Source: Mobula hypostoma
Lineage: Eukaryota
Length of the DNA stretch: 64,000 bases
Direction: 5' to 3'
NCBI RefSeq assembly: GCF_963921235.1
Contig: NC_086108.1
Location: 7,068,001 to 7,132,000, forward strand
Shown: piece by piece, positions 2,713 to 61,520 of the stretch
Layout of the letters: every line of letters begins with the position of its first letter
How positions within the stretch are numbered: the stretch's first letter is position 1
Notes under the pieces: model-generated
What the model saw: the letters and a program-made list of their open reading frames with translations, nothing else
Told to the model about the DNA's origin: nothing
Database searches by the model: none
Made by a program: the position numbers and the translations under genes

Positions 2713-5700
2713 CATCATCATCATCATCATCATCAGGTGCCGTGCCCAGTTTGAGCTTTGACTGCCATGGCCCACACACTCCTGTTTCGGGTTAAGTGGA
2801 TCAATTCATTGGTATTCATTTCCAGTTCTCTGGTTGCTGTCTCCATCATCATTTGTCTTTGTCTTCCTTTAGCTTTCTTCCCTTCAATCTTTCCCATAAT
2901 TACAGTGCATTCTAACTCCTCTTTCCTAATCACATGTCCAATGAAGTTACGTTGCCTTTTCATGATCTCATACATTATTCCTCTTTTTGTGTTTGCTCTG
3001 TTCATGACATCCTCGTTAGATATTCGTTTCGTCCATTATATTCTTTGCATCCTCCTCAAAAGCCACATCTCGGCTGCTACAATTCGTCTCCTCATGTTAC
3101 TAGATCAGACATCCCACCTCTCCCGGAAGTTCCAGGAGTCTCCCGCATATTAATAGTGGCTCCCTGATGCCCGCAAATTATATACAATGTCCCAGAAATT
3201 GATTTTTTTTTGAGAGCGAGTGTGAGAGAACACGCGAAAAAGAGCGAGCACAAGAGCAAGAAAGCAAGCGAGAAAGAGACCATGAGAGAGACCATGAGAG
3301 AGAGAGAGAGAGAGCAAGAGCGAGAAAGCAAGCGCGAGAGAAAGCGACCACGAGCGAGAGAGCGCGCTCAAGACCAAGAGCGGGAGTGTTCCAAAAAAAG
3401 AAAATATGAAACGTACGTCACCCCAGACTACACTAAAGTGTACCCCTGCCTAATAGGGGTCAAAAATAATGACAGTGTTGCTCGCTGCACTGTTTGCAAC
3501 AGTGACTTTTCTATTGCCCATGGTGGGTAAAGACTGTAAAAGACATGGTGAGGTGAGTTTAACAGGTGTCATTCGTTCATTAGCATAGCTAACGTTATTT
3601 AAACTAGCTGGCCAGCTGCTAAGGAGCTACTCCATTGCAGACATCCCACCTCTCCCGGAAGTCTCCCGCAAATTGATGGTGCTACCTCCCTGAAATGAAT
3701 TTTGCGGGGTGGGATGTCTGCTAGATATTGTCCAACATTCTTAGCCATATAACATAACTGGATAAACATAACATTTCAGTTCCCTGAGGCAGGTTGTCAT
3801 GTTTAGTATTGGTCAGTATACTCTTCATTCTCGTAAAGGTGCCTTTTGCCATCCCTATTCTTCTTTTGATGTCCATGTCGCACCTGCCATCTGATGTCAC
3901 CCAGCTTCTGAAGTAGCAAAAGTTCTGTACTTGTTTTATGTCTTCCCTGTTTATTCTCAGCCTGCAGATAGGATTCTCCTTTTTGGATCTCACCATATAT
4001 TCTGTCTTTTTGCAATTGATAGTCCTATTTTTGCACTTTCTTCAACAATTATATCAATTAAAATTTTGTAGTTCTTCCTCCGTACTTGCAATTAACACAG
4101 TGTCATCTGCATATCTGAAATTATTGATGTTTTCACCACCAACTTTGATTCCCAAGATGTCTCTTATTTTTGTAATATTGTTTCACTGTACACACTAAAT
4201 AAATCGGGAGAAAACACACCCTTGTCTAACGCCTCTCTTGATTTTCGTAAGCTGACTCACTTCTCCATCTATTCTTACGGCGGCAGTTTGTTCCCAGTAC
4301 AGATTTCTGATTCGACAGAGGTCTTTCGAATCTAGATCTAGAGTTTTCTGTAATATTTCAAATAACTTATTGTGCTTCACTTTATCAAATGCTTTTGTGT
4401 AGTCGATAAAACAAACAAACAAATCTTTTTGCACTTGAATAGCTCATTCTGATAGTATCCTTAACATCAATATTGTGTTTCTTGTACCTTTATCTTTCAC
4501 AAAACCACATTGTTCTTTGCCTATTTCAGTTTGTATCTTACTTTTAGTTCTTGTCATCAAAATCCTTAAAAGTATCTTGGTGATATGACTCATTAAACTT
4601 ATGGTCCTATGTAATTCACATTCTATTGCTCCAGGTTTCTTAGGAAGAGTGATAAATACTGATTTTTTTTTTCCCCCATCTCTTCCTGTATTATTTCAGT
4701 CTCATAAATGTCATTGATTAAATCAGTAAGTTTTTCAATTCCATAATCTTCAAGGGCAAAAATTTGTTCTATTACTAATTCACCAGGACCTGCTGCCTTT
4801 CTTCATCTTATTTATTGCATTATGAACTTCAGATTTTAAAATACTTGGACCTTCAATGTTTTTCTTAATTTCTGGTTTTTCGCCTCGATCGTCTTCAAAC
4901 AATTCCTGAACATACTCAGTCCATCGGTTCATAATCTCATTTTTTTCCATGACAATGGTACCATCCTTTGCTTTCAAACATCCACCTGAAGAACAGAGGA
5001 GCTTTTTACCAGTGATATTCTTGATTTGTTGATGTAACCTTTTTGGATCAGTAATAGGGATTCTTTCTATTTGCTCACATTCCTGGTTTAACCATTCTTC
5101 TTTGGCTTTTTGACATAAGCTTTTAACTTTTTTATCTAAGGACTTGTATTCTATAGGATTTGCTTTCTTCCATCTCCCTTCTTCCATTAGATTTTTGATT
5201 TCATCTGTCATCCATTTATTCTTTGTGCTTTTTTCTTTTTTAGGAATCACTGACTTTGCTGATTCTACCAAGGTATCCTTTAGAGAGTTAAATTTCATTT
5301 CTACATGATTGCTATCATCTTCAACCAATTCTATTTCTAGACTTTGAAATCTATTCCTTACTTCAATTGTAAATTTTTGTCCCTTAAGTTTTCTTCTTTA
5401 ATTAATTGCGAGTAGTCAAGGGATTGTTCAGGTTTTTGCTTCTTTAGTTTTTTAAGTTTTACTTTTACATGACATACTACTGGGTTACGGTCACTATTAC
5501 AGTCTACACCTGGATATGTTTTGTATTGAGTCACTGAGTTTCTAAATCTTTGGTTTATAGCAATAAGGTCAATTTGATTTCTAGTGTTATCACCTGGACT
5601 TTTCCAGGACCACAAGCATCTTGGATGGTTTTTAAAGTAGGTATTCATAATGACCTGATTATTCATCTTGCACCATTCTACCCATTTCTCACCTCTTTCA

Positions 5701-6063
5701 TTTCTTTCCCCTAGTCCAAATTTTCCTATGGTATTTCCATCAGCACCTTGTCCTACTTTAGCATTTAGATCTTCCATGACAATAACAATATCTTGAGATT
5801 TGCATCCATTCTTTGCTTGTTCAAGCTCTTCATAGAATTTATCTATATCCTCATTTGTTCTATCTGTTGTTGGTGCATATACCTATATAAACTGCTAAAT
5901 CAAATGGTTGTCCTCTGAATCTAACAAGGACCACTCTTTCTGATATTGCCCAATGTCCTAAAACACTTTCTGCCATGTTTTCATCCATAAGAATTCTTAC
6001 TCCATTAGGATGTATGGGATGTTCCACAAGAATAAATTATTGTTTTATTTATATTCTGACGTG
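2713..6063 (-). mobile_element. 5'-truncated RTE-clade LINE (APE endonuclease remnant plus reverse transcriptase, frameshifted)
   Basis: ORF fragments DLNAKVG..FGLGERNERGE..TRNQIDLIAI (APE), FVCFIDYTKAFDKV..KRGVRQGCV and RYADD (RT), C-terminal GKIEGKKAKGRQR; (TGA)n tail at 2713-2735; 12-bp TSD tgtatacaatat at 2701-2712 and 6064-6075. Confidence 0.92.
3106..3720 (+). mobile_element. Non-autonomous hAT-like DNA transposon with BED-type zinc-finger remnant, inserted in the RTE
   Basis: 13-bp TIRs CAGACATCCCACC / GGTGGGATGTCTG; 6-bp TSD ctagat (3100-3105, 3721-3726); removing it restores the RTE frame ECWTISSNMRRR. Internal peptide ARCTVCNSDFSIAHGG*DCKRH. Confidence 0.85.
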
Positions 6064-14304: not shown

Positions 14305-14490
14305 CAGCAACACATAAATGCTGGTGAACGCAGCAGGCCAGGCAGCATCTATTGGAAGAGGTACAGCTGATGTTTCAGGTCGAAGGGTCTCAGCCCGAAA
14401 CATCAACTGTACCTCTTCCAATAGATGCTGGGTTCACCAGCATTTTATGTGTGTTGCTTGGATTTCCAGCATCTACAGATTTCCTCGTGT
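14305..14490. mobile_element. Palindromic (head-to-head) Penelope-like pLTR pair
   Basis: Arms gcatctattggaagaggtacagctgatgtttc / gaaacatcaactgtacctcttccaatagatgc centred on the hammerhead stem II. Confidence 0.75.
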
Positions 14491-16889: not shown

Positions 16890-18340
16890 TGTACTGCCAC
16901 CCCATAACATAGACCAGTACAGCTCAGGAACAGGCTATTTGACAAACAACGTTGTGCTGAACCAACTAAAAGCAAATGAAAAACACAAATCCCTAATCCC
17001 TCTTTACCTACACCATGTCCATATCCCTCCATCTTCCTCACATCCATGTACCTACCCAAACGTCTCTTAAAAGCTTCTAATGTATTGCCTCTACCACCAT
17101 ACCAGGCAGCACATTCCAGGCATCCATGATTCAACTTGCATCCCCCTCGAGCCCCCGCTCGCCTTCAATGCATACCCTCTAGTATTAGACATTTCAGCCC
17201 TGGGAAACAGATACTTCTGGTCCCCTCTATTTCTGCCTCTCTTAATCTTATTCAACCTCTTATCAGATCTCCCCTTAACCTCCACTGCTCCAGAGAAAAC
17301 AACCCAACTTTATCCAGCCTCTTGTGATAGCACATGCCCTCAAACCAGGCACCATCCTGGTAACACACATGAAAGTTGCTGGTGAACGCAGCAGGCCAGG
17401 CAGCATCTCTAGAAAGAGGTACAGTTGATGTTTCGGGCCGAGACCCTTCGTCAGGATTACCATCCTGGTAATCCTCTTCTGCACCCTCTCCAAAGCCTCA
17501 ACATCCTTCCTGTAGTGGGGTGACCAGAACTGTATGTAATACTCCAGATGTGGTCTAACTAGAGCTTTATAAATTTGCAACATAACTTCCTGACATTTGA
17601 ACTCAGTGCCTCGACTATTAAAAACAAGCATTCCTTCCATAAGCGGCCATAACCGCTTTATCAACCTGTGTAGCCACTTTCAAGGAACTATCAACTTGGA
17701 TCCCAAAATCCCTCTGCTTAGCAACACTGTTAGAGACCTTTCCCTTAACAGTGTACTGTCTCCTTGCATTTGCCCTACCGAGGTGCAACACCTCACAATT
17801 ATTTGAGTTAAACACCAGGTGCCATTTCTCAGCACATATCTGCAACTGATCTATATCATGCTGTATTCTTTGCCAGTCTTCTACATTATCCACAACCCCA
17901 CCAATCTTGGAATTATCTGCAAATTTACTCACCCACCCATCTATATTTTCATCCAGGTCATTTATATACATCACAAGTGACAGAGGTCCCAGCACAGATC
18001 CCTGTGGAACGCCACTAATTACAGACCTCCAGCTCAAATCATTACCCTGTGTCTTCTATTCACTAGCTGGTTGTGAATTCAAACAACCAATTCACTGTGG
18101 ATTCCATGCATCTTGATCTTCTGGATGACCCTCCTATGAGGGACTTTGTCAAACACCTAACTAAAATCCATGTAGGCAGCATCCACTGCCCTACCCTCAT
18201 CAATCTCTCTTGCCACCTTGTTTAAAAAAAAAAGTCAATCAAGTTGGCTAGGTGTGACCTGACATGCACAAAGTCATGCTGGCTCTCCCTAATGAGTTTC
18301 CAAATGGTCATATATCCTATTCCTACGAATTTTCTCCAGC
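16890..18340 (-). mobile_element. CR1 LINE, 5'-truncated, decayed RT
   Basis: SGVPQGSVLGP..YINDLD..SKFADNSKIGG; LVRPHLEYYIQFWSPHYRKDVEALERVQKR. Confidence 0.88.
17364..17458 (-). mobile_element. 95-bp Penelope-like insertion consisting of hammerhead motif plus 3' end
   Basis: 13-bp TSD accatcctggtaa (17351-17363, 17459-17471) within the CR1; minus strand CTGACGA-agggtctcggccc-GAAA-catc. Confidence 0.85.
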
Positions 18341-18344
18341 GCGT

Positions 18345-18597
18345 CAGTGATTGGATGTTGCACTGAGCTTGGCAATTAGCTTGTAGATGTTTCATCATCG
18401 GTCGAGATGACATCCTCAGTGCACAGCTTTTTCCACTCTGAGTGCTCGCGTTAATATAGGTCCCCGTTCACTTGCCTCAGTCCTGATTGGCTACCCCTTC
18501 AGGTGACCTTTGAAATCTATTGGCTTGTGATTCTTTGACACTTAGGGAATTCATAGCATCTATTTTGATACGTTTGTTTACAGTGGAGAAACAAGGT
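18345..18597 (-). mobile_element. Second Penelope-like family fragment with hammerhead motif at 18382-18424
   Basis: Minus strand tgca-CTGAGGA-t-gtcatc-tcgacc-gatgat-GAAA-catc-taca; upstream peptide remnant FSTVNKRIKIDAM resembles a PLE ORF C-terminus. Confidence 0.65.
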
Positions 18598-29834: not shown

Positions 29835-32800
29835 CAGTGGTTATCAACCTGTGTCTGCTTGTGGCCCACTTGTGACTTAGAAACATAGAAAATAGGTGCA
29901 GGAGTAGGCCATTCAGCCCTTCGAGCCTGCACCGCCATTTATTATGATCATGGCTGATCATCCAACTCAGAACCCTGTACCAGCCCTCCCTCCATACCCC
30001 CTGATCCCTGTAGCCACAAGGGCCATATCTAACTCCCTCTTAAATATAGCCAATGAACTGGCCTCAACTGTTTCCTGTGGCAGAGAATTCCACAGATTCA
30101 CCGCTCTCTGTGTGAAGAAGTTTTTCTTAATCTCGGTCCTAAAAGGCTTCCCCTTTATCCTGAAACTGTGACCCCTCGTTCTGGACTTCCCCAACATTGG
30201 GAACAATCTTCCTGCATCTAGCCTGTCCAATCCCTTTAGGATTTTATACGTTTCAATCAGATCCCCCCTCGATCTTCTAAATTCCAACGAGTACAAGCCC
30301 AGTTCATCCAGTCTTTCTTCATATGAAAGTCCTGCCATCCCAGGAATCAATCTGGTGAACCTTCTTTGTACTCCCTCTATGGTAAGGATGTCTTTCCTCA
30401 GATTAGGGGACCAAAACTGCACACAATACTCCAGGTGTGGTCTCACAAAGGCCTTGTACAACTGCAGTAGTACCTCCCTGCTCCTGTACTCGAATCCTCT
30501 CGCTATAAATGCCAGCATACCATTTGCCTTTTTCACCGCCTGCTGTACCTGCATGCCCACTTTCAATGACTGGTGTATAATGACACCCAGGTCTCGTTGC
30601 ACCTCCCCTTTTCCTAATCGGCCACCATTCAGATAATAATCTGTTTTCCTATTTTTGCCACCAAAGTGGATAACTTCACATTTATCCACATTAAATTGCA
30701 TCTGCCATGAATTTGCCCACTCACCTAACCTATCCAAGTCACCCTGCATCCTCTTAGCATCCTCCTCACAGATAACACTGCCGCCCAGCTTCGTGTCATC
30801 CGCAAACTTGGAGATGCTGCATTTAATTCCCTCATCCAAGTCATTAATATATCTTGTAAACAACTGGGGTCCCAGCACTGAGCCTTGCGGTACCCCACTA
30901 GTCATTGCTTGCCATTCTGAAAAGGTCCCGTTTATTCCCACTCTGCTTGCTTAAGTTTTTTTTGGTTAACTGTACTAATCATTCTAATAGAAAAATAAAT
31001 ATGTATGTTTTAACTGGTTATAGGTGTAATTATATGTTGAATATGTTACAGGTGTATATGGAAAATAAAACCATTTCAAAGCTCTAAATAGGATATTTTA
31101 TTAATAATGTGGGGTGGAGATACATCTCTATCAAAGAAGGTATAAGGTGTCCCTTCCCTATGCTAGCCTGCAGGTCGCCCTTGGGCAGGGTGTAGTACCC
31201 CACCCCCCCCCCCCCCCCCAGTCAGGGTCATGTAAAGCCATTGGAACAGGTGATGGATGGTTGTATGAGGAGCTAGTGCATATCACAAGTGTGGGTTCTG
31301 TGACCACTGATACCAGGCAGACAATCTCTGCAGAGTATTGATTATTATTATGATTATGAGGACACACAGTCCCGTTTTATTGTCATTTAGTAATGCATGC
31401 ATTAAGAAATGATAAAAATGTTTTTCCAGAATGATATCACGAAAACACATGACAAACCCACTTAAAAACTAACAAGAACCACATAATTATAACATATAGT
31501 TACAACAATGCAAAGCAATACCGTAATTTGATAAGAACAGACCATGGCACAGTAAAAGTCTGAGTCTCTTCATCTTCTCCTCCCTCCTAATGGCGGGGTC
31601 ACCCGTCTTGTAAAGACATTGCCTAGAAGAAGGCAATGGCAAACCACTTCTGTTGGAAAATTTGCCAAGAACAATCATAGCCATGGATCGGGAAAGCAGT
31701 CGGATTAATGACAGGTGGAAGACTATGATTGCCCTGGTCATACAACACGGCATGTATTGATGATGACATATATAATACTGTTCTAACCAGCAACGAAAAC
31801 ACACTAATACTGTTACTTTGGGTATTTAGTGAGATCCTTACAACTGATACAAACTTGTGAGTTTTTGAACATCTGATTGCAATTTGGTTAAAGATAATCA
31901 AAGATTACCTCATCGTCAGGACGGTTAAGGGCTTTTGATAGCAGGTGAAGAGCTTGACTAAAACCACATTCAACTGGATAAGAGTTAGGAAATCCAATTA
32001 AAAACAACTTTGCTTTCTCCCAGAGCTGTCGAAACTTATTTTGAATATCACTAGTCATCCAGAAATTTTGCTTGCTGCATTTATGTTTTGCTTGAGCAGT
32101 TAAATGACTCTGTGGCTCATTAAGACATTCTTGGAATGTGGTATCAACATCCTTCATGTTCACCCCAAATGAATCCATCTCCCAATCTGGATTATGCATC
32201 TCCAGCAGGTCTCTGAACTGAAATCCCTTATCAGTGTGCAGTTGTTTCAAATGATCAAGATCATTGTCTTGCCTTTCGATTTTAAGAGTGCCAGTGATCG
32301 GTTTAAGTGCCATGCCAGATCAGAAAGTTCGGGTACAGTTCAAATCGAGGTGGTGGGGTGCAGGCCCCAGGGCTTAGCGAAGTGATTGAACCCAATGTCT
32401 GAATGTTGATTTAGGCGCCAGTCCAAATTGGAAAGGTCAGGGTGTTGAAGCCAGAGGCAAGGGATAGGCCAGTTCAGCTGACTGCTCCATGACCTTTATT
32501 CAGCTCTGCAGTGAACTATGGGTGTCAGACTCTCTCTGTGGACTTCAGTTCAGAACACGATTTGCTTCTGTTTATTATTTGCATGATTTGTTTCTTCCTC
32601 TCTACACATTGGGTGTTTGATGTCTTTTTTTGATGGGTTCTTTTGGGCTTCTTTGTTTTGTGGCTGCCTGTAAGGAGACCGATCTCAATGTTGTATAATG
32701 TATACCTATTTTTATAATAGATGTACTTCAAACTTTTGAAAGAAATTCGATAAACTCACAATGTCCGATATTACTACCGAAAAGTTTGAGTTTTCCAAGG

Positions 32801-33332: not shown

Positions 33333-34391
33333 AACTAGAATATAAAAGCAAGGTTGTACTGCTGAGGTTTTATAAGGCACAGGTCAGAACACTCAGAGCA
33401 TTGTGGTCCTTATCTGGATTCCTTATCTAAAAAAAATGTGCTAGCATTAGAAAGGATCCAGAGGAGGCTCCCAAGAATTATTCTAGGAAAGATTTGTTTT
33501 GTGGCTCCCTGTAAGAAGATGAATATCAAGATTGTATAATGTATACACTTTGATAATAGGGGTACTTTGAAAGGATTAATGTATGAGAAGCATTTGATGT
33601 CTCTAGGCCTGTACTTGAGTTCAGAAGAATGAGGGGGGATCTCTTTGAAGCCTATCGAATATTGAAAGGCCTAGATCGAGCTGATGTTGAGTGGATGTTT
33701 CCTATGGTGGGGGAGTCTAACACCTCTATAAAAGTCTAAGCCTCAGAGTACAAGGATGTCCCTTTAGAACAGAGATGAGGAGGAATTTCTTTAGCCAGAG
33801 GGTGGTGAATCTGTGGAATTCATTGCCACAGGTGGCTGTGGAGGCCAAGTCATTGGCTGTATTTAAAGTGGAGGTTGATAGGTTCTTGATTAATAAGGGC
33901 ATCAGAGGTTACAGGGTGAATGCAGAAGAATGGGTTTGTGAAAGATATGAAATCAGTCATGATGGAATGGCGAAGCAGACTTGATAAGCCAATTCTGCAT
34001 CTATGTCTTTTGTTATAAGTGTTGCCGCGCTTCCAGCGCTGACATTGCTTGTGCACAATGTTCAGTAGAACAACACAGACCCAACACAAAACAAACCCCT
34101 TCTCACCCTTCACCCCTACCACCCTGTCCCCCAAACCAGGGATCACCAGCTCTTGACCCCTGGGCCTACCGAACTAGCTCATCAAACTGTAGAGTACATT
34201 TCTTATAATGTAGACATTTTTAATTGCCTTCGACTGGAGATTTTTATTGACTTTTGTATTTATATTATAGTTTCTCTGGACTCTGAAATTTCAGAAGGCT
34301 TCAGACTGTTTTCTTTCTGCATGTTCTCTTGAAAAACAAAAGCTCACAATGTTTTTCTTCATCCTGCCAGGACTTTACATTCATCTCAAAC

Positions 34392-34595
34392 ATGTTCAGC
34401 AAGAAGAAGAAGCGGGTAGAGATCTCAGCACCTGTGAATTTCGAGCACCGTGTCCACACTGGCTTTGATCAGCAGGAACAGAAGTTTACTGGGCTTCCAA
34501 GGCAATGGCAGAGCCTCCTTGAGGACACGGCCAAACGGCCCAAGCCCCTGGTGGACCCATCGTACATCACACCCATTCAGCTTGCTCCGCGTAAG
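34392..34595 (+). CDS. PAK4: PAK4 first coding exon (N-terminal basic NLS, CRIB/GTPase-binding domain, RPKPLV pseudosubstrate); exon starts at 34371 with 21 nt before the ATG
   Basis: Translates as [68 protein letters not shown] (68 codons). Pyrimidine tract plus acceptor ttcttcatcctgccag ends at 34370; donor AAG|GTAGGT at 34596, phase 0. RVEISAP and GLPRQWQSL favour PAK4 over PAK5/6. Confidence 0.95.
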
Positions 34596-35246: not shown

Positions 35247-35445
35247 GCAATGCGCATAAAATGCTGGAGGAACTCAGCAGACCAGGCAGCATATATGGAA
35301 AAAAGTAAACATTTGACGTTTCGGGCTGAGACCCTTTTTAACTATTTTCTCTTTTCCATATATGCTCCCTGGCCTGCTGAGTTCCTCCAGCATTTTGTGT
35401 GCATTGCTTTAGTTTCCAGTATCTGCAGATTTTTCCCTTGTTTGT
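35247..35445. mobile_element. Palindromic Penelope-like pLTR pair
   Basis: Arms gcaatgcgcataaaatgctggaggaactcagcag..gcatatatggaaaa / ttttccatatatgc..ctgctgagttcctccagcattttgtgtgcattgc. Confidence 0.75.
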
Positions 35446-36390: not shown

Positions 36391-37168
36391 TGAAAAACAA
36401 CTGAAGGCCAAATGTAATTATTGCACTCTCAGATTATATGGAGAATTCGGAAGCCGCCTGTGGTCCAGGGAAGTGTTGAAGCACTGTATGTATCTTTATG
36501 TATTGCACTGTACTGCTGCCACAGAACAACAATTTTCACAACGTTGCTATAAACCTGATTCTGCTTTACTGACTATACTAATAGATCTGGATATTTCCAA
36601 TCTGCAGTAATCCCCTAACAAAGTTTCTGAGTTCACAATATTAAACTAGAGGGAAAATTTATTGTTCTTTTTTAATTTATTGAGATACAGCACAAATTTG
36701 GCAATTCAATATAATATAGATTATTTTTAACACAGGGATCTCGAAATTCACCACTTGATACTTTGATAATGCCTTTTTCCTTTACCCTAATTCTCTCTCA
36801 TGGTTAAGATCTAATCGTTTAGTTGCATCATCTTCTGAAAAAACTTCTATTGTTTCCTCAAAGCCTGCACATTTCTAAATAATTTATTTATTTATTTTAT
36901 TATCTGTTAAAATTTTTATTTATTTGTTTATTTGAGATGCAGTGTGGAATAGGCCCTTCTTGGCCCTTCAAGCCACGCTGCCCAGCAACCCCCGATTTAA
37001 TCCTAGCCTAGTCACAGGACAATTTGCAGTGATTAATTAACCTACCAACTGCTAGGCCCTTGGACTGTGGGAGGAGACTGAAGCACCTGGGGGAAAACCA
37101 CGCGGTCGTGCGGGAGAACACGAGCAAGATCCCAAAAACAAGATCTTTTACTGTCTCTTCCTTCAGTT

Positions 37169-37204
37169 AGTCCTGACGAAGGGTCTCGGCCCGAAACGTC
37201 GACT
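37169..37204 (+). ncRNA. Minimal type I hammerhead ribozyme motif in a Penelope-like repeat (about 37140-37264)
   Basis: AGTC-CTGACGA-A-GGGT(CTCG)GCCC-GAAA-CG-TC^GACT: helix I AGTC/GACT, intact core boxes, helix II, palindromic ACGT in place of helix III, GUC cleavage triplet ending at 37200. Confidence 0.8.
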
Positions 37205-38794
37205 GTACCTCTTCCCAGAGATGCTGCCTGGCCTGCTGCGTTCACTAGCAACTTTGATGTGTGTAGGATGGAGGGAGTGTGTTGATATTCTTGTTGCTGT
37301 TTGCACTGGTTTTTTTTGTGTGTGGGGAGAGGTTTGATATTTTGAACAGCCTGGCCTCCATGGTTTAGAAGAATCTCTGAGTTGTATACCGTGTACATAC
37401 TTTGATAATACATGAACCTTGTTTCTTGAACATCTTGTTTGCCAATTAATTAGGAGCCTGATTTGGCATGTTTTAAACATAGTTATGGTTGCTACGGGTT
37501 CTTTACTGCTGAGAACTGATTTATTGGTGTTTCTGTTGGCATTCTATAGTTTGTGGGCACACACACTCTCTGTATAGTCCTCAAGTGTGTTTAGCTTCTG
37601 TTTTGGCAAGAGCCAAAAATCTTAAAAGTAGCTCAACTGTCTGGCTTCAGGGATAGACTGTCAAAGCAAAAACTGGTTACGGTGCTGGAAAAGTGAATTG
37701 TGAAATGAAAATGCTGATTGGGTCAGCCAGCACCAGTGGTGAGCAAAACAGATTGGTGACCTTTTGTTAGCTGTGCTACTTGCTCAGCAGGAAAATAAAA
37801 CACGTATTTTATTAATTATCTATTCAACCGTGTGCTTGTGAACCTGGTTTTCCAATTAATTTAATTCTTTCTTTCTTTCTTTCCTAAGTTATTTTGTGTT
37901 ATGTATACTACTGTGCTTTACACCATGGTCTGGAGAAAATTTGACAGTATACATGTATATAGTTAAATGACAATAAACTTAATTTGACATGAAGTTTCAT
38001 CCACAGTAAAGTCATTTACTTCATAAGTTAACTCTGAAATCCATTGAAAATTCTAGAGGAAGCAGATTAAACTTGGTTGTCACTCCCCCCCCCCCCCCCC
38101 CCCAAGCTATCTTGCCCTCTTTTAATTGGGCCATCTGATACTTGGGATTAGTGAAGTCCAAGTATACTGTAGAAGCTAAAGTCATGATTTTCAAAAGTTA
38201 TTCATGAATGTTTTATTGACCTGTAGATTTAAAGTGTCTATGCTGAAACCAACCCTTCGATAACTTCTAATTCAAAATTATTCCTCAGTGCTCTAAGTTC
38301 AAAGTATATTTATTATCAAATCATGTATACATTATACAACTTTGAGATTCATCTCCTAACATGTAGCCACGAAACAAAGAAACCCAAAAGAAGCTGTTTT
38401 TTAAAAAAAGACCATCAAACACCCCAATGTGCAGAGAAAAGAAAGAAAAAAAATCATGCAAAACAGGCAAATAACATTCTGAACTGACGTTCACAAAGAG
38501 AGCCCAAGACTTGTAGTTCAGCACAGAGCCAAGTAAACATCATGGAGCAGAGAGCTGAACCGGCCCCTGACATTTTCAATCGGCTCAGCGCCTAAATCGC
38601 GTCCAAACCTCGGGTTCTATCGCTTCGATGCCTGGACGCCACCGCCTCTATTCAGCCTGTGACACGGCATGTAAGGAACAAGCAAATACATAAAGGTTTT
38701 CCAAACAACCATTGTGCAAATTAAAAAAATAATACTGAGAACATGAGTTGTGGAGTCCTTGAAAGCGAGTTGAGTGCTGTGAAATCAGTTCAGA

Positions 38795-39174
38795 GTTGTG
38801 GGGAGTGAAGTTATCCACACTGGTTCAGGAGCCTGATGGTTGAGGGGGTAATAACTGTTCCTGAACTTGGTGGTGTGGAACCTGAGGCTCATTGTGGTGA
38901 GTGAAGTTATCCACACTGGTTCAGGAGCCTGATGGTTGTGGGGTAATAACTGTTCCTGAACCTGGTGGTGTGGGACCTGAGGCTCATTGTGGTGAGTGAA
39001 GTTATCCACACCGGTTCAGGAGCCTGATGATTGTGGGGTGATAACTGTTCCTGAACCTGGTGGTGTGGGACCTGAGGCTCATTGTGGTGAGTGAAGTTAT
39101 CCACACTGGTTCAGGAGCCTGATGGTTGTGGGGTAATAACTGTTCCTGAACCTGGTGGTGTGGGACCTGAGGCT
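38795..39174 (-). repeat. Tandem array of about four 95-96-bp units derived from a Rex-type ORF 3' end (host fragment about 38690-39420)
   Basis: The anchor gagtgaagttatccacac recurs at 38803, 38899, 38994 and 39089. Confidence 0.9.
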
Positions 39175-51819: not shown

Positions 51820-53540
51820 TGAACCCTCAACACAGGGGCCCCCCAGGGATGTGTAGTAAGCCCTCCCCTTTACTCACTGTATACCCATGACTGTGTCGTC
51901 ACCTATAGCTCAAATCTGCTAATTAAATTTGCAGATGATACTAAATTGATGGCTTTATCTCAAATAGTAATGAGGCAGCCTACAGAGAAGAAGTCATTAG
52001 ATTAGATTAGATTACATTCAACTTTATTGTTATTGTGCCGAGTGCAGATACAAAGCCAATGAAATGCAGTTAGCATTTAACCAGAAATACAAAGAATAGT
52101 GTTATTTACAAAATAACTGCAAATAAAAAGTAAGTGCTACAGCACACAAATATGTAAGTACTGAGACAGTACAAACTGGGTGCAATACTGCTTAGTGCTG
52201 TGATGTGAGGTTCAGGGTCACAGGGTCACAGCCTCAGGGAAGAAGCTCTTCCTGTGCTTGCTGGTTTGGGAGCGGAAGCTTTGTGGTCCAATATGGGACA
52301 ATTGCCATACCACACTGAGATGCAGTTGGTGAGTATGCTCTCAACGGTACAGCGGTTAAAGTCCATTAGTATCCTGGGACAGAGGTGAGCTTTCTTGATG
52401 CTCCACAGGAAATAAAGGCGCTGTTGTGCCTTTTTGATCAGGATGGAGGAGTTCAGGGACGAGGTGTGAGTGTGCTTCCTAGCATGCCTTAAGTCCACAA
52501 TGATCTCCTTGGTCTTAAGGGCCAGGTTGTTGTCAGCACACCACGCAGCCAGGTGCTGGACCTCGTCCCTGTAGTCTGTCTCATCATCCCCTCTGATCAG
52601 GCCGACCACCGTGGTGTCGTCTGCAAAGTTGATTATGGAGTTAGAACCAGGTACAGGAACGCAGTCATAGGTGAAAAGGGAGTACAGAAGAGGGCTCAGC
52701 ACACAGCCTTGAGGCACGCCAGTGTTCAGGGTGAGAGTGGAGGAGGAGAGGTTGTCTAACTTAACTGATTGGGGTCTTTTAGTTACCCAGACATACTGAT
52801 GTCAAGAAAACAACCTCTCCCTCAATGTCGCAGAAATAAAGGAGCTGTTTGTGGACTACAGGAGGAATGGAGACAGGCTCACCCCTATTGACAATAATGG
52901 ATCTGGGGTTGAGAGGATGAACAGCTTTAAGTTCCTCGGTATACACTTCACCAAGGATCTCACTTGGTATGTACATACCGGGTGTGGTGAAAAAAGCACA
53001 ACAGCACCTCTTTCACCTCAGACGGTTGAAGAAGTTTGACCTGATCCTAAGGACTTTCTACAGGCACATAATTGAGAGCATCCTGACTGGCTGCATCATT
53101 GCCTGGTATGGGAACTGTACTTCCCTCAATTGCAGGACTCTGCAGACAGTGGTGCGGACAGCCCAGCGCATCTGTAGATGTGAACTTCCCTCTATTCAGG
53201 ACATTTACAAAGACAGCTGCGTACAAGGGGTCTAAAGGATTATTGGGGACCCGAGTCACCCCAACCACAAACTGTTGCAGCTGCCACCATCCGGGAAAGG
53301 GTACCGCAGCATTAAAGCCAGGACCAACAGTCTTTGGGACAGCTTCTTCCACCAGGCCATCAGACTGATTAATTCATGCTGACACAATTGTATTTCTATG
53401 CTGTATTGACTGTTCTGTATATCTTACTGTACATACTATTTATTGCAAATTACTATAATTTGCACATTCAGACAGATACATAACGTAAAGATTTTTACTC
53501 CTTATGTATGTGAAGGATGTAAGAAATAGTCAATTCAATT
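51820..53540 (+). mobile_element. Rex1/Babar-type LINE RT fragment interrupted by an opposite-strand Rex element
   Basis: NTGAPQGCVVSP..KFADDT (51820-51996) resumes near 52781 with ENNLSLNV..KKAQQHLFHLRRL; (TTCAA)n tail. Confidence 0.8.
51997..52780 (-). mobile_element. Rex1/Babar-type LINE RT fragment (nested)
   Basis: PQGCVLSPLLYSLFTYDC..NFADDTTVVGLI..KKAQQRLYFL; (AATCT)n tail. Confidence 0.85.
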
Positions 53541-60767: not shown

Positions 60768-61520
60768 GCCATTGTAAGGGGAAGCAAAGTTGGAATCGAC
60801 GGCTCACTGAACTGGCTTCTGGATGAATTTGAGAATGTTTCTGTTACTCGTTCCAATTCCCTGCGGAGAGGGAGCCCACCTTCACTGCCCCATCGGGACC
60901 AGTCGCAGGATGGCGTGCACAAGAACGGAGTGCACAATAGCCACACTAAGGGTGTCTACTCATCTGAGTTGGAGAGATACCACGATAACAAGGCGAGGAC
61001 TGAGGGGAGTAAGCCAGGGTCCAGGGATGAGCGGGACCAGGGTAGGGACGACAGGCACAGGAACCGAAATGCTGAGCGGGACAGCGGTCGTGGTCACCCG
61101 CAGCAGCCCAGGGGTCAGGAGCCGAGCAGGCCCAACCACCGTGACAGGGAGCTCCGCCCCGATTACCACAGGCACCCTGACAACAGGGGCAAGTCACACC
61201 ATAAAGTGGACAGCAGGAGAGACCACCACCCGGGCGACCAGGAAGGAAACCACGTTGGTTTCAATGAGCCCGCCAGTTCACAGGAGCGCTCAGCACGGCG
61301 AGAGAAGATTGAAGCCGCAGACAAGAGGCCAACGTCCACATACACTGGCGAGATCAGCCCACAGTCCCCAAAGGACAAGCGACCTCTCTCTGGTCCAAAT
61401 ATCCGCTCTCCGAATGTTCCAGATGCTGATGGAACGCGAAAGGGCCTGCATCCATCTGGGAGACCCTTCAATACGTACCCGATGGCTGACGCTGGAACAA
61501 GCAGAGGCACCAACAGCCAG
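60768..61520 (+). CDS. PAK4: PAK4 second coding exon (end of GBD region and low-complexity central linker)
   Basis: Strong acceptor ttttctttcttttcttcacttcag ending 60767; 753 nt open in phase 0: AIVRGSKVGIDGSLNWLLDEFENVSVTRSNSLRRGSPP...DKRPLSGPN...GRPFNTYPMADAGTSRGTNSQ; donor CAG|GTTTGT at 61521. Joins the previous exon in frame. TRSNSLRR, KRPLSGP and RPFNTYP are PAK4 motifs. Confidence 0.93.

What the first reader, a model, noticed from the sequence alone, without database searches (positions are those of the whole stretch)
37169..37204. Intact minimal hammerhead ribozyme motif in sense orientation inside the PAK4 intron
Seen: AGTC-CTGACGA-A-GGGT(CTCG)GCCC-GAAA-CG-TC^GACT, with both catalytic boxes, helix I, helix II with one extra A after A9, and a palindromic ACGT where helix III should be. 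Established: Penelope-like elements carry minimal hammerheads of this kind in their pLTRs, and these cleave poorly as monomers but better as dimers through the palindromic helix III. Inference: this is the only fully intact copy I found, it is transcribed as part of the PAK4 pre-mRNA, and it could cut the intron after C37200 if it pairs with a second copy.
Basis: partly seen in the sequence, partly recalled or inferred. Interest (0 to 1): 0.75.

Follow-up and report, generated by a model that had tools for sequence, protein, structure and literature searches.

The report
Penelope retroelement hammerhead in PAK4 intron
The motif is a real, intact copy of the small "dimer-type" self-cutting RNA carried at the end of Penelope-like jumping genes, but it is one of tens of thousands of such copies in this genome and is most likely an inert passenger in the PAK4 intron.

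Summary
In detail: 37169-37204 is a complete minimal type I hammerhead on the sense strand of PAK4 intron 34596-60767, the only intact one of 19 related copies in the window. It lies in a ~120-nt, 5'-truncated end of a Penelope-like retroelement; a full copy has RT, a CX4CX2C linker, GIY-YIG and this motif in both pseudo-LTRs, 3518 nt apart. The genome holds 4,891 identical and 57,731 descriptor-intact copies, about one per 64-kb window, so this copy is not special. Cleavage here is unlikely: no intact sense partner lies in 34371-84000, the monomer folds into a core-blocking hairpin (p about 0.7), and the modelled active dimer is 9 kcal/mol worse than two hairpins. Genome-wide, 284 copies break at the cleavage site, against 234 and 175 at neighbouring control sites and 41,454 uncut: no clear cleavage footprint. 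RNA evidence was not obtained. The kind is published (PMC4209133), and this scan has noted the family many times on other DNA. New member of a known kind; low interest.

The parts
37143..37266 (+). 5'-truncated 3' end (pseudo-LTR piece) of a Penelope-like retroelement, short-end form without the 40-nt tail; boundaries +/- 5 nt
   Evidence: matches relatives from about 37143 to 37264-37266; 4 mismatches in 119 nt to the nearest copies; no target-site duplication found
37169..37204 (+). minimal type I hammerhead motif
37173..37179 (+). CUGANGA catalytic box (N7 = C), followed by the extra A at 37180
   Evidence: extra nucleotide between 9 and 10.1 described in PMC4209133
37181..37192 (+). helix II, 4 bp with 4-nt loop, G10.1-C11.1 intact
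   Evidence: pair probabilities 0.64-0.71 in 200-nt context
37193..37200 (+). GAAA box, palindromic ACGU in place of helix III, and C17 (predicted cut between 37200 and 37201)
   Evidence: in the model ACGU is mostly paired with the CUGANGA box
37147..37170 (+). 3' splice-site-like stretch of the element: branch-like YTNAY 37147-37151, pyrimidine tract, AG at 37165-37166 and 37169-37170 (the second is in helix I); use untested
   Evidence: read; similar in related copies; the element's 3' UTR is 80% pyrimidine with 3 AG in 297 nt, so chance is not excluded
34371..34595 (+). PAK4 first coding exon (CRIB), ATG at 34392, donor after 34595
60768..61520 (+). PAK4 next coding exon; closes the 26.2-kb host intron
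   Evidence: kinase exons downstream

Best explanation
A recently inserted, 5'-truncated tail of a hugely amplified Neptune-type Penelope-like element. The hammerhead belongs to the element: in full copies it sits in both pseudo-LTRs, 3518 nt apart and about 140 nt upstream of the ORF's first ATG (shown). There the two motifs of one tandem transcript probably swap strands through the ACGU palindrome, slowly and perhaps with protein help, to cut out a unit-length RNA (inferred from PMC4209133, not shown). The PAK4 copy is intact because it is young, not because it is used (inferred). It has no near partner, folds on itself and is spliced out with the intron, so it rarely if ever cleaves and does not affect PAK4 (inferred).
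For: Parent element: L059 has a 1175-nt direct repeat (97%) around an open frame of 1043 codons with RT, CX4CX2C and GIY-YIG motifs, and the motif in both repeats. Abundance: 4,891 exact, 57,731 descriptor-intact, 121,096 within 3 mismatches, evenly split by strand, reversed-pattern controls 0; 1.06 intact copies expected per 64 kb and a 20% chance of a sense copy in an intron of this size. Youth: 4 mismatches in 119 nt to the nearest copies. Older neighbours decay through the core, mostly at CpG sites. No partner: the other 6 sense copies in 34371-84000 all fail the descriptor; the nearest intact sense copy found is about 77 kb upstream. Folding: bases 37175-37178 pair with 37197-37200 at p about 0.7; active dimer -16.7, two hairpins -25.8, inactive duplex -34.1 kcal/mol. 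Sense copies are not depleted in the gene: 7 sense, 3 antisense (small sample). No clear excess of copies starting or ending at the cleavage site.
Against: No RNA or biochemical evidence was obtained. The copy keeps G10.1-C11.1, which only about 20 of the first 100 listed intact copies do (hand count), so equally canonical copies are nearer one per 300 kb. The count at the cleavage site (284) is 1.2 and 1.6 times the two controls (234, 175), so a weak signal is not excluded. Nearest-neighbour energies ignore core tertiary contacts, Mg2+ and proteins. The PAK4 start site was not located, so the intact sense copy 77 kb upstream could be on the same pre-mRNA. Conservation of this insertion in other species could not be tested (no relatives held).
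Confidence: 0.85

Rival explanations
1. The local copy cuts the nascent PAK4 intron at a low rate by pairing with another family RNA in trans (or a distant copy in cis), helped by RNA chaperones, with little effect on splicing.
For: All core positions, G10.1-C11.1 and the palindrome are intact; potential partners are very many (57,731); dimers and trimers showed low activity in vitro (PMC4209133).
Against: Only 5 + 4 base pairs hold a trans partner; the one-site complex is about 11 kcal/mol worse than two hairpins; 8 of 9 natural Xenopus retrozyme dimers gave no cleavage in vitro (bioRxiv 10.64898/2026.07.22.740005); no clear footprint in copy ends.
Confidence: 0.08
2. The motif is catalytically vestigial even in the parent family; it is kept as a structural or splicing signal (protein-binding hairpin, or a 3' splice site ending in helix I), and the element copies uncut RNA.
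For: 41,454 copies run through the cleavage site against 284 that break there; about 80 of the first 100 listed intact copies, and both motifs of L059, carry U11.1 in place of the conserved C; copy 3' ends lie 26-72 nt (35 of 64) or 91-107 nt (29 of 64) past the motif; PMC8557442 calls HHR function in these elements unclear. This rival concerns the family and is compatible with the local copy being inert.
Against: The core and palindrome are kept across subfamilies whose flanks differ and in a second family with a different, longer helix II (4 of the first 100 rows). Re-ligated or circular templates would also give uncut junctions. U11.1 may partly be CpG decay.
Confidence: 0.25
3. A domesticated intronic ribozyme that regulates PAK4, like the conserved amniote intronic hammerheads.
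For: Intact, sense, near a donor site; domesticated intronic hammerheads exist (RECK and others, passages of PMC6155905).
Against: It is a minimal motif without helix III, in a young insertion 97% identical to dispersed copies, and its presence is expected by chance.
Confidence: 0.02

Closest known systems
Minimal hammerheads (min-HHR) in the pLTRs of metazoan Penelope-like elements (Cervera and De la Pena 2014, PMC4209133; main text read, supplement not read)
   Same: Type I; intact boxes; extra nucleotide between 9 and 10.1; G10.1-C11.1; palindromic 15.2-16.2 with no loop III; 4-5 bp helix I; pairs about 3 kb apart around an RT ORF; mostly solo copies from truncated elements; reported for Xena, Poseidon and Neptune of fishes.
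   Different: Helix II is 4 bp, not the 7-8 bp of the schistosome motifs; copy number (57,731 intact) exceeds the about 4,000 (coelacanth) and 9,000 (Xenopus) given there, and copies are far more uniform; cartilaginous fishes are not named in its main text.
Neptune/Nematis-type EN+ Penelope-like elements (Craig et al. 2021, PMC8557442; passages read)
   Same: RT, CX2-5CxxC linker, C-terminal GIY-YIG; partial-tandem pLTR, inverted 5'-truncated copies, optional 30-40-bp tail.
   Different: Neptune versus Nematis was not resolved by a tree; the local copy has no coding sequence.
Non-LTR retrozymes of animals (bioRxiv 10.64898/2026.07.22.740005; parts 1-3 of 5 read)
   Same: Type I hammerhead from a PLE pLTR; found in the one chondrichthyan sampled; 42-44% of Xenopus copies lie in introns.
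   Different: Retrozymes are head-to-tail tandem units; this copy is a solo truncated end (no tandem array here).
Conserved intronic hammerheads of amniotes (RECK and others; passages of PMC6155905)
   Same: Type I motif in the sense strand of an intron.
   Different: Those are few, deeply conserved and (recalled) have helix III and tertiary loops; this one is minimal, young and one of tens of thousands.

Membership tests
PLE minimal hammerhead (min-HHR) | CUGANGA and GAAA boxes, U16.1-H17, helices I and II | tested here: met
PLE minimal hammerhead (min-HHR) | one nucleotide between 9 and 10.1; G10.1-C11.1; palindromic 15.2-16.2 | tested here: met
   against the four features listed in PMC4209133
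PLE minimal hammerhead (min-HHR) | located in the pLTRs of a PLE | tested here: met
   window piece aligns at 90-91% to both pLTR copies of L059
PLE minimal hammerhead (min-HHR) | self-cleavage as a dimer | not testable with these tools
   needs an assay; folding model unfavourable
Rfam hammerhead families | match to a covariance model | tested here: not met
   no match at gathering score or at E <= 10
EN+ Penelope-like element (parent) | single ORF with RT and C-terminal GIY-YIG | tested here: met
   L059 frame of 1043 codons with YIDD and VIY...YIG motifs; Pfam RVT_1 E 7e-5 and GIY-YIG E 0.004, both under their curated cut-offs
EN+ Penelope-like element (parent) | partial-tandem pLTR, inverted truncated copies, optional tail | tested here: met
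Neptune clade | CX2-5CxxC linker between RT and endonuclease | tested here: met
   CX4CX2C in L012, L026, L028, L059; also a feature of Nematis (PMC8557442)
Neptune clade | RT groups with Neptune references in a tree | not tested
   no reference sequences were fetched
Non-LTR retrozyme | two or more head-to-tail units, each with a hammerhead | tested here: not met
   solo copy; no tandem array at the site
Domesticated intronic hammerhead | orthologous conservation across species | not testable with these tools
   no related genomes held

The most novel reading that the evidence does not exclude
With about 29,000 intact motifs on each strand, thousands must lie in introns in sense orientation. 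If host chaperones let them pair in trans, this genome has a diffuse, genome-wide nicking of pre-mRNA introns, PAK4 included, and is the best system to settle whether Penelope minimal hammerheads cut in vivo; the splice-acceptor-like AG inside helix I could in addition let splicing switch the ribozyme, as described for Drosophila Penelope.
Probability: 0.07. Interest if true: 0.6.

Novelty: new member of a known kind. Interest (0 to 1): 0.12.

Why it matters
For PAK4 it probably does not matter. The family matters modestly: the in vivo role of PLE minimal hammerheads is still described as unknown (passages of PMC7761336, PMC8557442), and a genome with over 100,000 recognisable copies allows counting tests. 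The one done here gives a constraint: more than 99% of young copies with the tested 3' anchor were copied from RNA that was uncut or re-joined at the site.

Tried and rejected
Rfam: no hammerhead match; two weak unrelated hits judged chance. Chance motif: rejected (0 of 300 simulated windows). Retrozyme tandem: rejected. Target-site duplication: none found allowing up to 1 mismatch. Cleavage footprint in DNA: 5' breaks 284 at the site versus 234 at -4 and 175 at +3; by hand count of the first 100 rows each, fold-back junctions make up 20 at the site and 21 at the -4 register, so the hairpin's microhomology explains them; after also removing small indels about 40 of 100 (site) and 56 of 100 (+3) remain, about 114 versus 98. 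3' breaks 83 at the site versus 329 at a control that is not well matched. Expression: no RNA holder listed on record; no read or contig evidence was obtained, so transcription, cleavage ends and use of the splice-site-like stretch are open. Solved structures: no match for the element's protein. Lunse, Weinberg and Breaker (RNA Biol 14:1499) is not held; I saw only its title and citing sentences in PMC6765202 and PMC7761336. Searches for a paper on this family in cartilaginous fish: hammerhead+Penelope+ribozyme+shark, Penelope+hammerhead+chondrichthy+retrotransposon, Penelope+elasmobranch+repeat+genome+Neptune (0 papers), hammerhead ribozyme+Penelope+Callorhinchus+minimal (Callorhinchus 0 in the 12 of 27 listed): none describes it in what I saw; supplements and repeat databases were not seen and may list it. 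Only 1 of the 12 long-ORF loci I wanted was examined (L059).

Full report
Observation. The motif is present as described at 37169-37204 on the + strand: helix I of 4-5 bp, CUGANGA at 37173-37179, one extra A, a 4-bp helix II closed by G10.1-C11.1, GAAA, palindromic ACGU, and C17 at 37200. A strict descriptor finds it once in the window and never in 300 simulated windows. Rfam does not report it. The host intron runs from 34596 to 60767 between two in-phase coding exons; the first matches PAK4 best and the kinase exons follow on the same strand. The orientation is sense. The window is part of a 3.48-Gb genome; that it is a cartilaginous fish is my recall of the repeat types and the wording of earlier scan notes, not a test.

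What it belongs to. The motif lies in a piece of about 120 nt (37143 to about 37266) that is repeated throughout the genome. In other copies the sequence continues upstream through a pyrimidine-rich 3' UTR into a GIY-YIG and RT coding frame. [quoted passage not shown] The motif is in both repeats, 3518 nt apart. Partial tandems, inverted truncated copies and an optional tail of about 40 nt (3' ends 26-72 nt past the motif in 35 of 64 aligned copies, 91-107 nt in 29 of 64, a sample filtered to cover the whole motif) are the structures given for these elements in PMC8557442, where the linker marks Neptune and Nematis. The PAK4 copy is a heavily 5'-truncated short-end insertion without a detectable target-site duplication.

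Is this copy special? In the window it is the only intact one of 19 copies; in 194 kb, 3 of 45 are intact. Genome-wide there are 4,891 identical 36-mers, 57,731 copies that keep both boxes, the palindrome and pairable helices and 121,096 within three mismatches, split evenly by strand with zero control hits. One intact copy per 64 kb is the expectation (1.06), and a 26-kb intron has a 20% chance of a sense copy. Against this: about 80 of the first 100 intact copies listed have U at 11.1 (hand count), so copies as canonical as this one are nearer one per 300 kb. The local piece differs from its nearest relatives at 4 of 119 positions, so youth explains its state; older neighbours have lost core bases, mostly at CpG sites.

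Would it cut? In PMC4209133 (main text read) a single minimal motif showed no cleavage and dimers or trimers showed low activity; in the 2026 preprint 10.64898/2026.07.22.740005 (parts 1-3 read) 1 of 9 natural dimers cleaved. A partner is needed. The other six sense copies between 34371 and 84000 fail the descriptor; the best, at 83279, keeps both boxes but has lost the palindrome and lies 46 kb away beyond the intron's end. The nearest intact sense copy found is about 77 kb upstream, and whether it is inside the PAK4 transcript is unknown. In the folding model the CUGANGA box pairs with 37197-37200 (p about 0.7 in 200 nt of context); the double hammerhead scores -16.7 kcal/mol, two separate hairpins -25.8 and an inactive duplex -34.1. 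These energies omit tertiary contacts, Mg2+ and proteins, so they show competition, not impossibility. Even a cut may not matter: PMC2995048 (passages read) cites in vivo work in which an intron cut by a hammerhead was spliced normally, whereas a fast HDV ribozyme blocked splicing. Sense copies are not depleted in this gene (7 sense, 3 antisense), a weak point from a small sample.

Does the family show that it cuts? If cleaved RNA were a common template, many insertions would begin or end at the site. Copies with unrelated letters just upstream of the site number 284, against 234 four bases earlier and 175 three bases later, while 41,454 run through. Fold-back junctions are as common at the non-cleavage register (21 of the first 100) as at the site (20 of the first 100), and many other rows are small indels (hand counts). 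Breaks on the 3' side give 83 against 329 for a poorly matched control. There is no clear spike; a small excess is not excluded. This does not show inactivity, since cleavage of the 5' motif alone, or re-ligation into a circle as proposed in PMC4209133, leaves uncut junctions. For selection on the motif: subfamilies with different flanks share the core, with N7 varying freely (A 10, C 8, T 8, G 1 of 27 copies), and a second family with a longer, different helix II keeps the boxes (4 of the first 100 rows; the pattern demanded the palindrome).

Mechanism, with status. Shown: the motif is the pLTR hammerhead of a Penelope-like element, paired at unit length in a full copy, solo here. Inferred: in tandem transcripts the two motifs swap strands through the palindrome and cut slowly. 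Inferred: this solo copy is transcribed with the intron, folds on itself and is discarded. Untested lead: a branch-like sequence, pyrimidine tract and AG end inside helix I, as the Drosophila Penelope intron does (PMC4209133); the region is pyrimidine-rich anyway. No RNA evidence was obtained.

Verdict. Observation confirmed; interpretation right about identity and orientation, weak about local cleavage. The kind is published, I found no paper on this family in the four searches named under Tried and rejected (supplements not seen), and this scan has 53 notes fitting 'hammerhead Penelope' in this genome, which are not independent evidence. New member of a known kind; interest 0.12.

Noticed in passing
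window 18390-18423, minus strand: Decayed copy of a second hammerhead-bearing family with a longer (6-bp) helix II; relatives appear among the rows. Parent element not identified.
   Followed up: partly
window 37147-37170 and 37205-37218: Two splice-acceptor-like stretches in the element, in sense to PAK4: one ends in helix I, one 18 nt past the cleavage site. Possible element intron end or cryptic exon.
   Followed up: no
L059:1620-1655 and 5138-5173; genome-wide rows: Most intact copies (about 80 of the first 100 listed), and both motifs of the long-ORF copy, have G10.1-U11.1 in place of the conserved G-C pair while other CpG sites are mostly kept: possibly a weakened ribozyme in the dominant subfamily.
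   Followed up: partly
window 14313-14430 and 35262-35384; L019, L021, L029, L033: Fold-back (inverted) insertions whose junction lies in or near the hammerhead hairpin, with microhomology from its helices.
   Followed up: partly
G000: Several copies of the element keep open frames of 900-1054 codons at about 91% identity to the query, pointing to recent activity.
   Followed up: partly
L031 (G000:C1:11077234 and 11078522): Two identical intact motifs 1288 nt apart on the same strand: a better natural candidate for a cis dimer than the PAK4 copy.
   Followed up: partly
window 38796-39174: Four tandem copies of a 95-nt unit (96% matches) in the same PAK4 intron.
   Followed up: no
window 29967-30950, 17275-18055, 4780-5882, 52226-52801: Ordinary LINE fragments (RT and endonuclease pieces).
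   Followed up: partly
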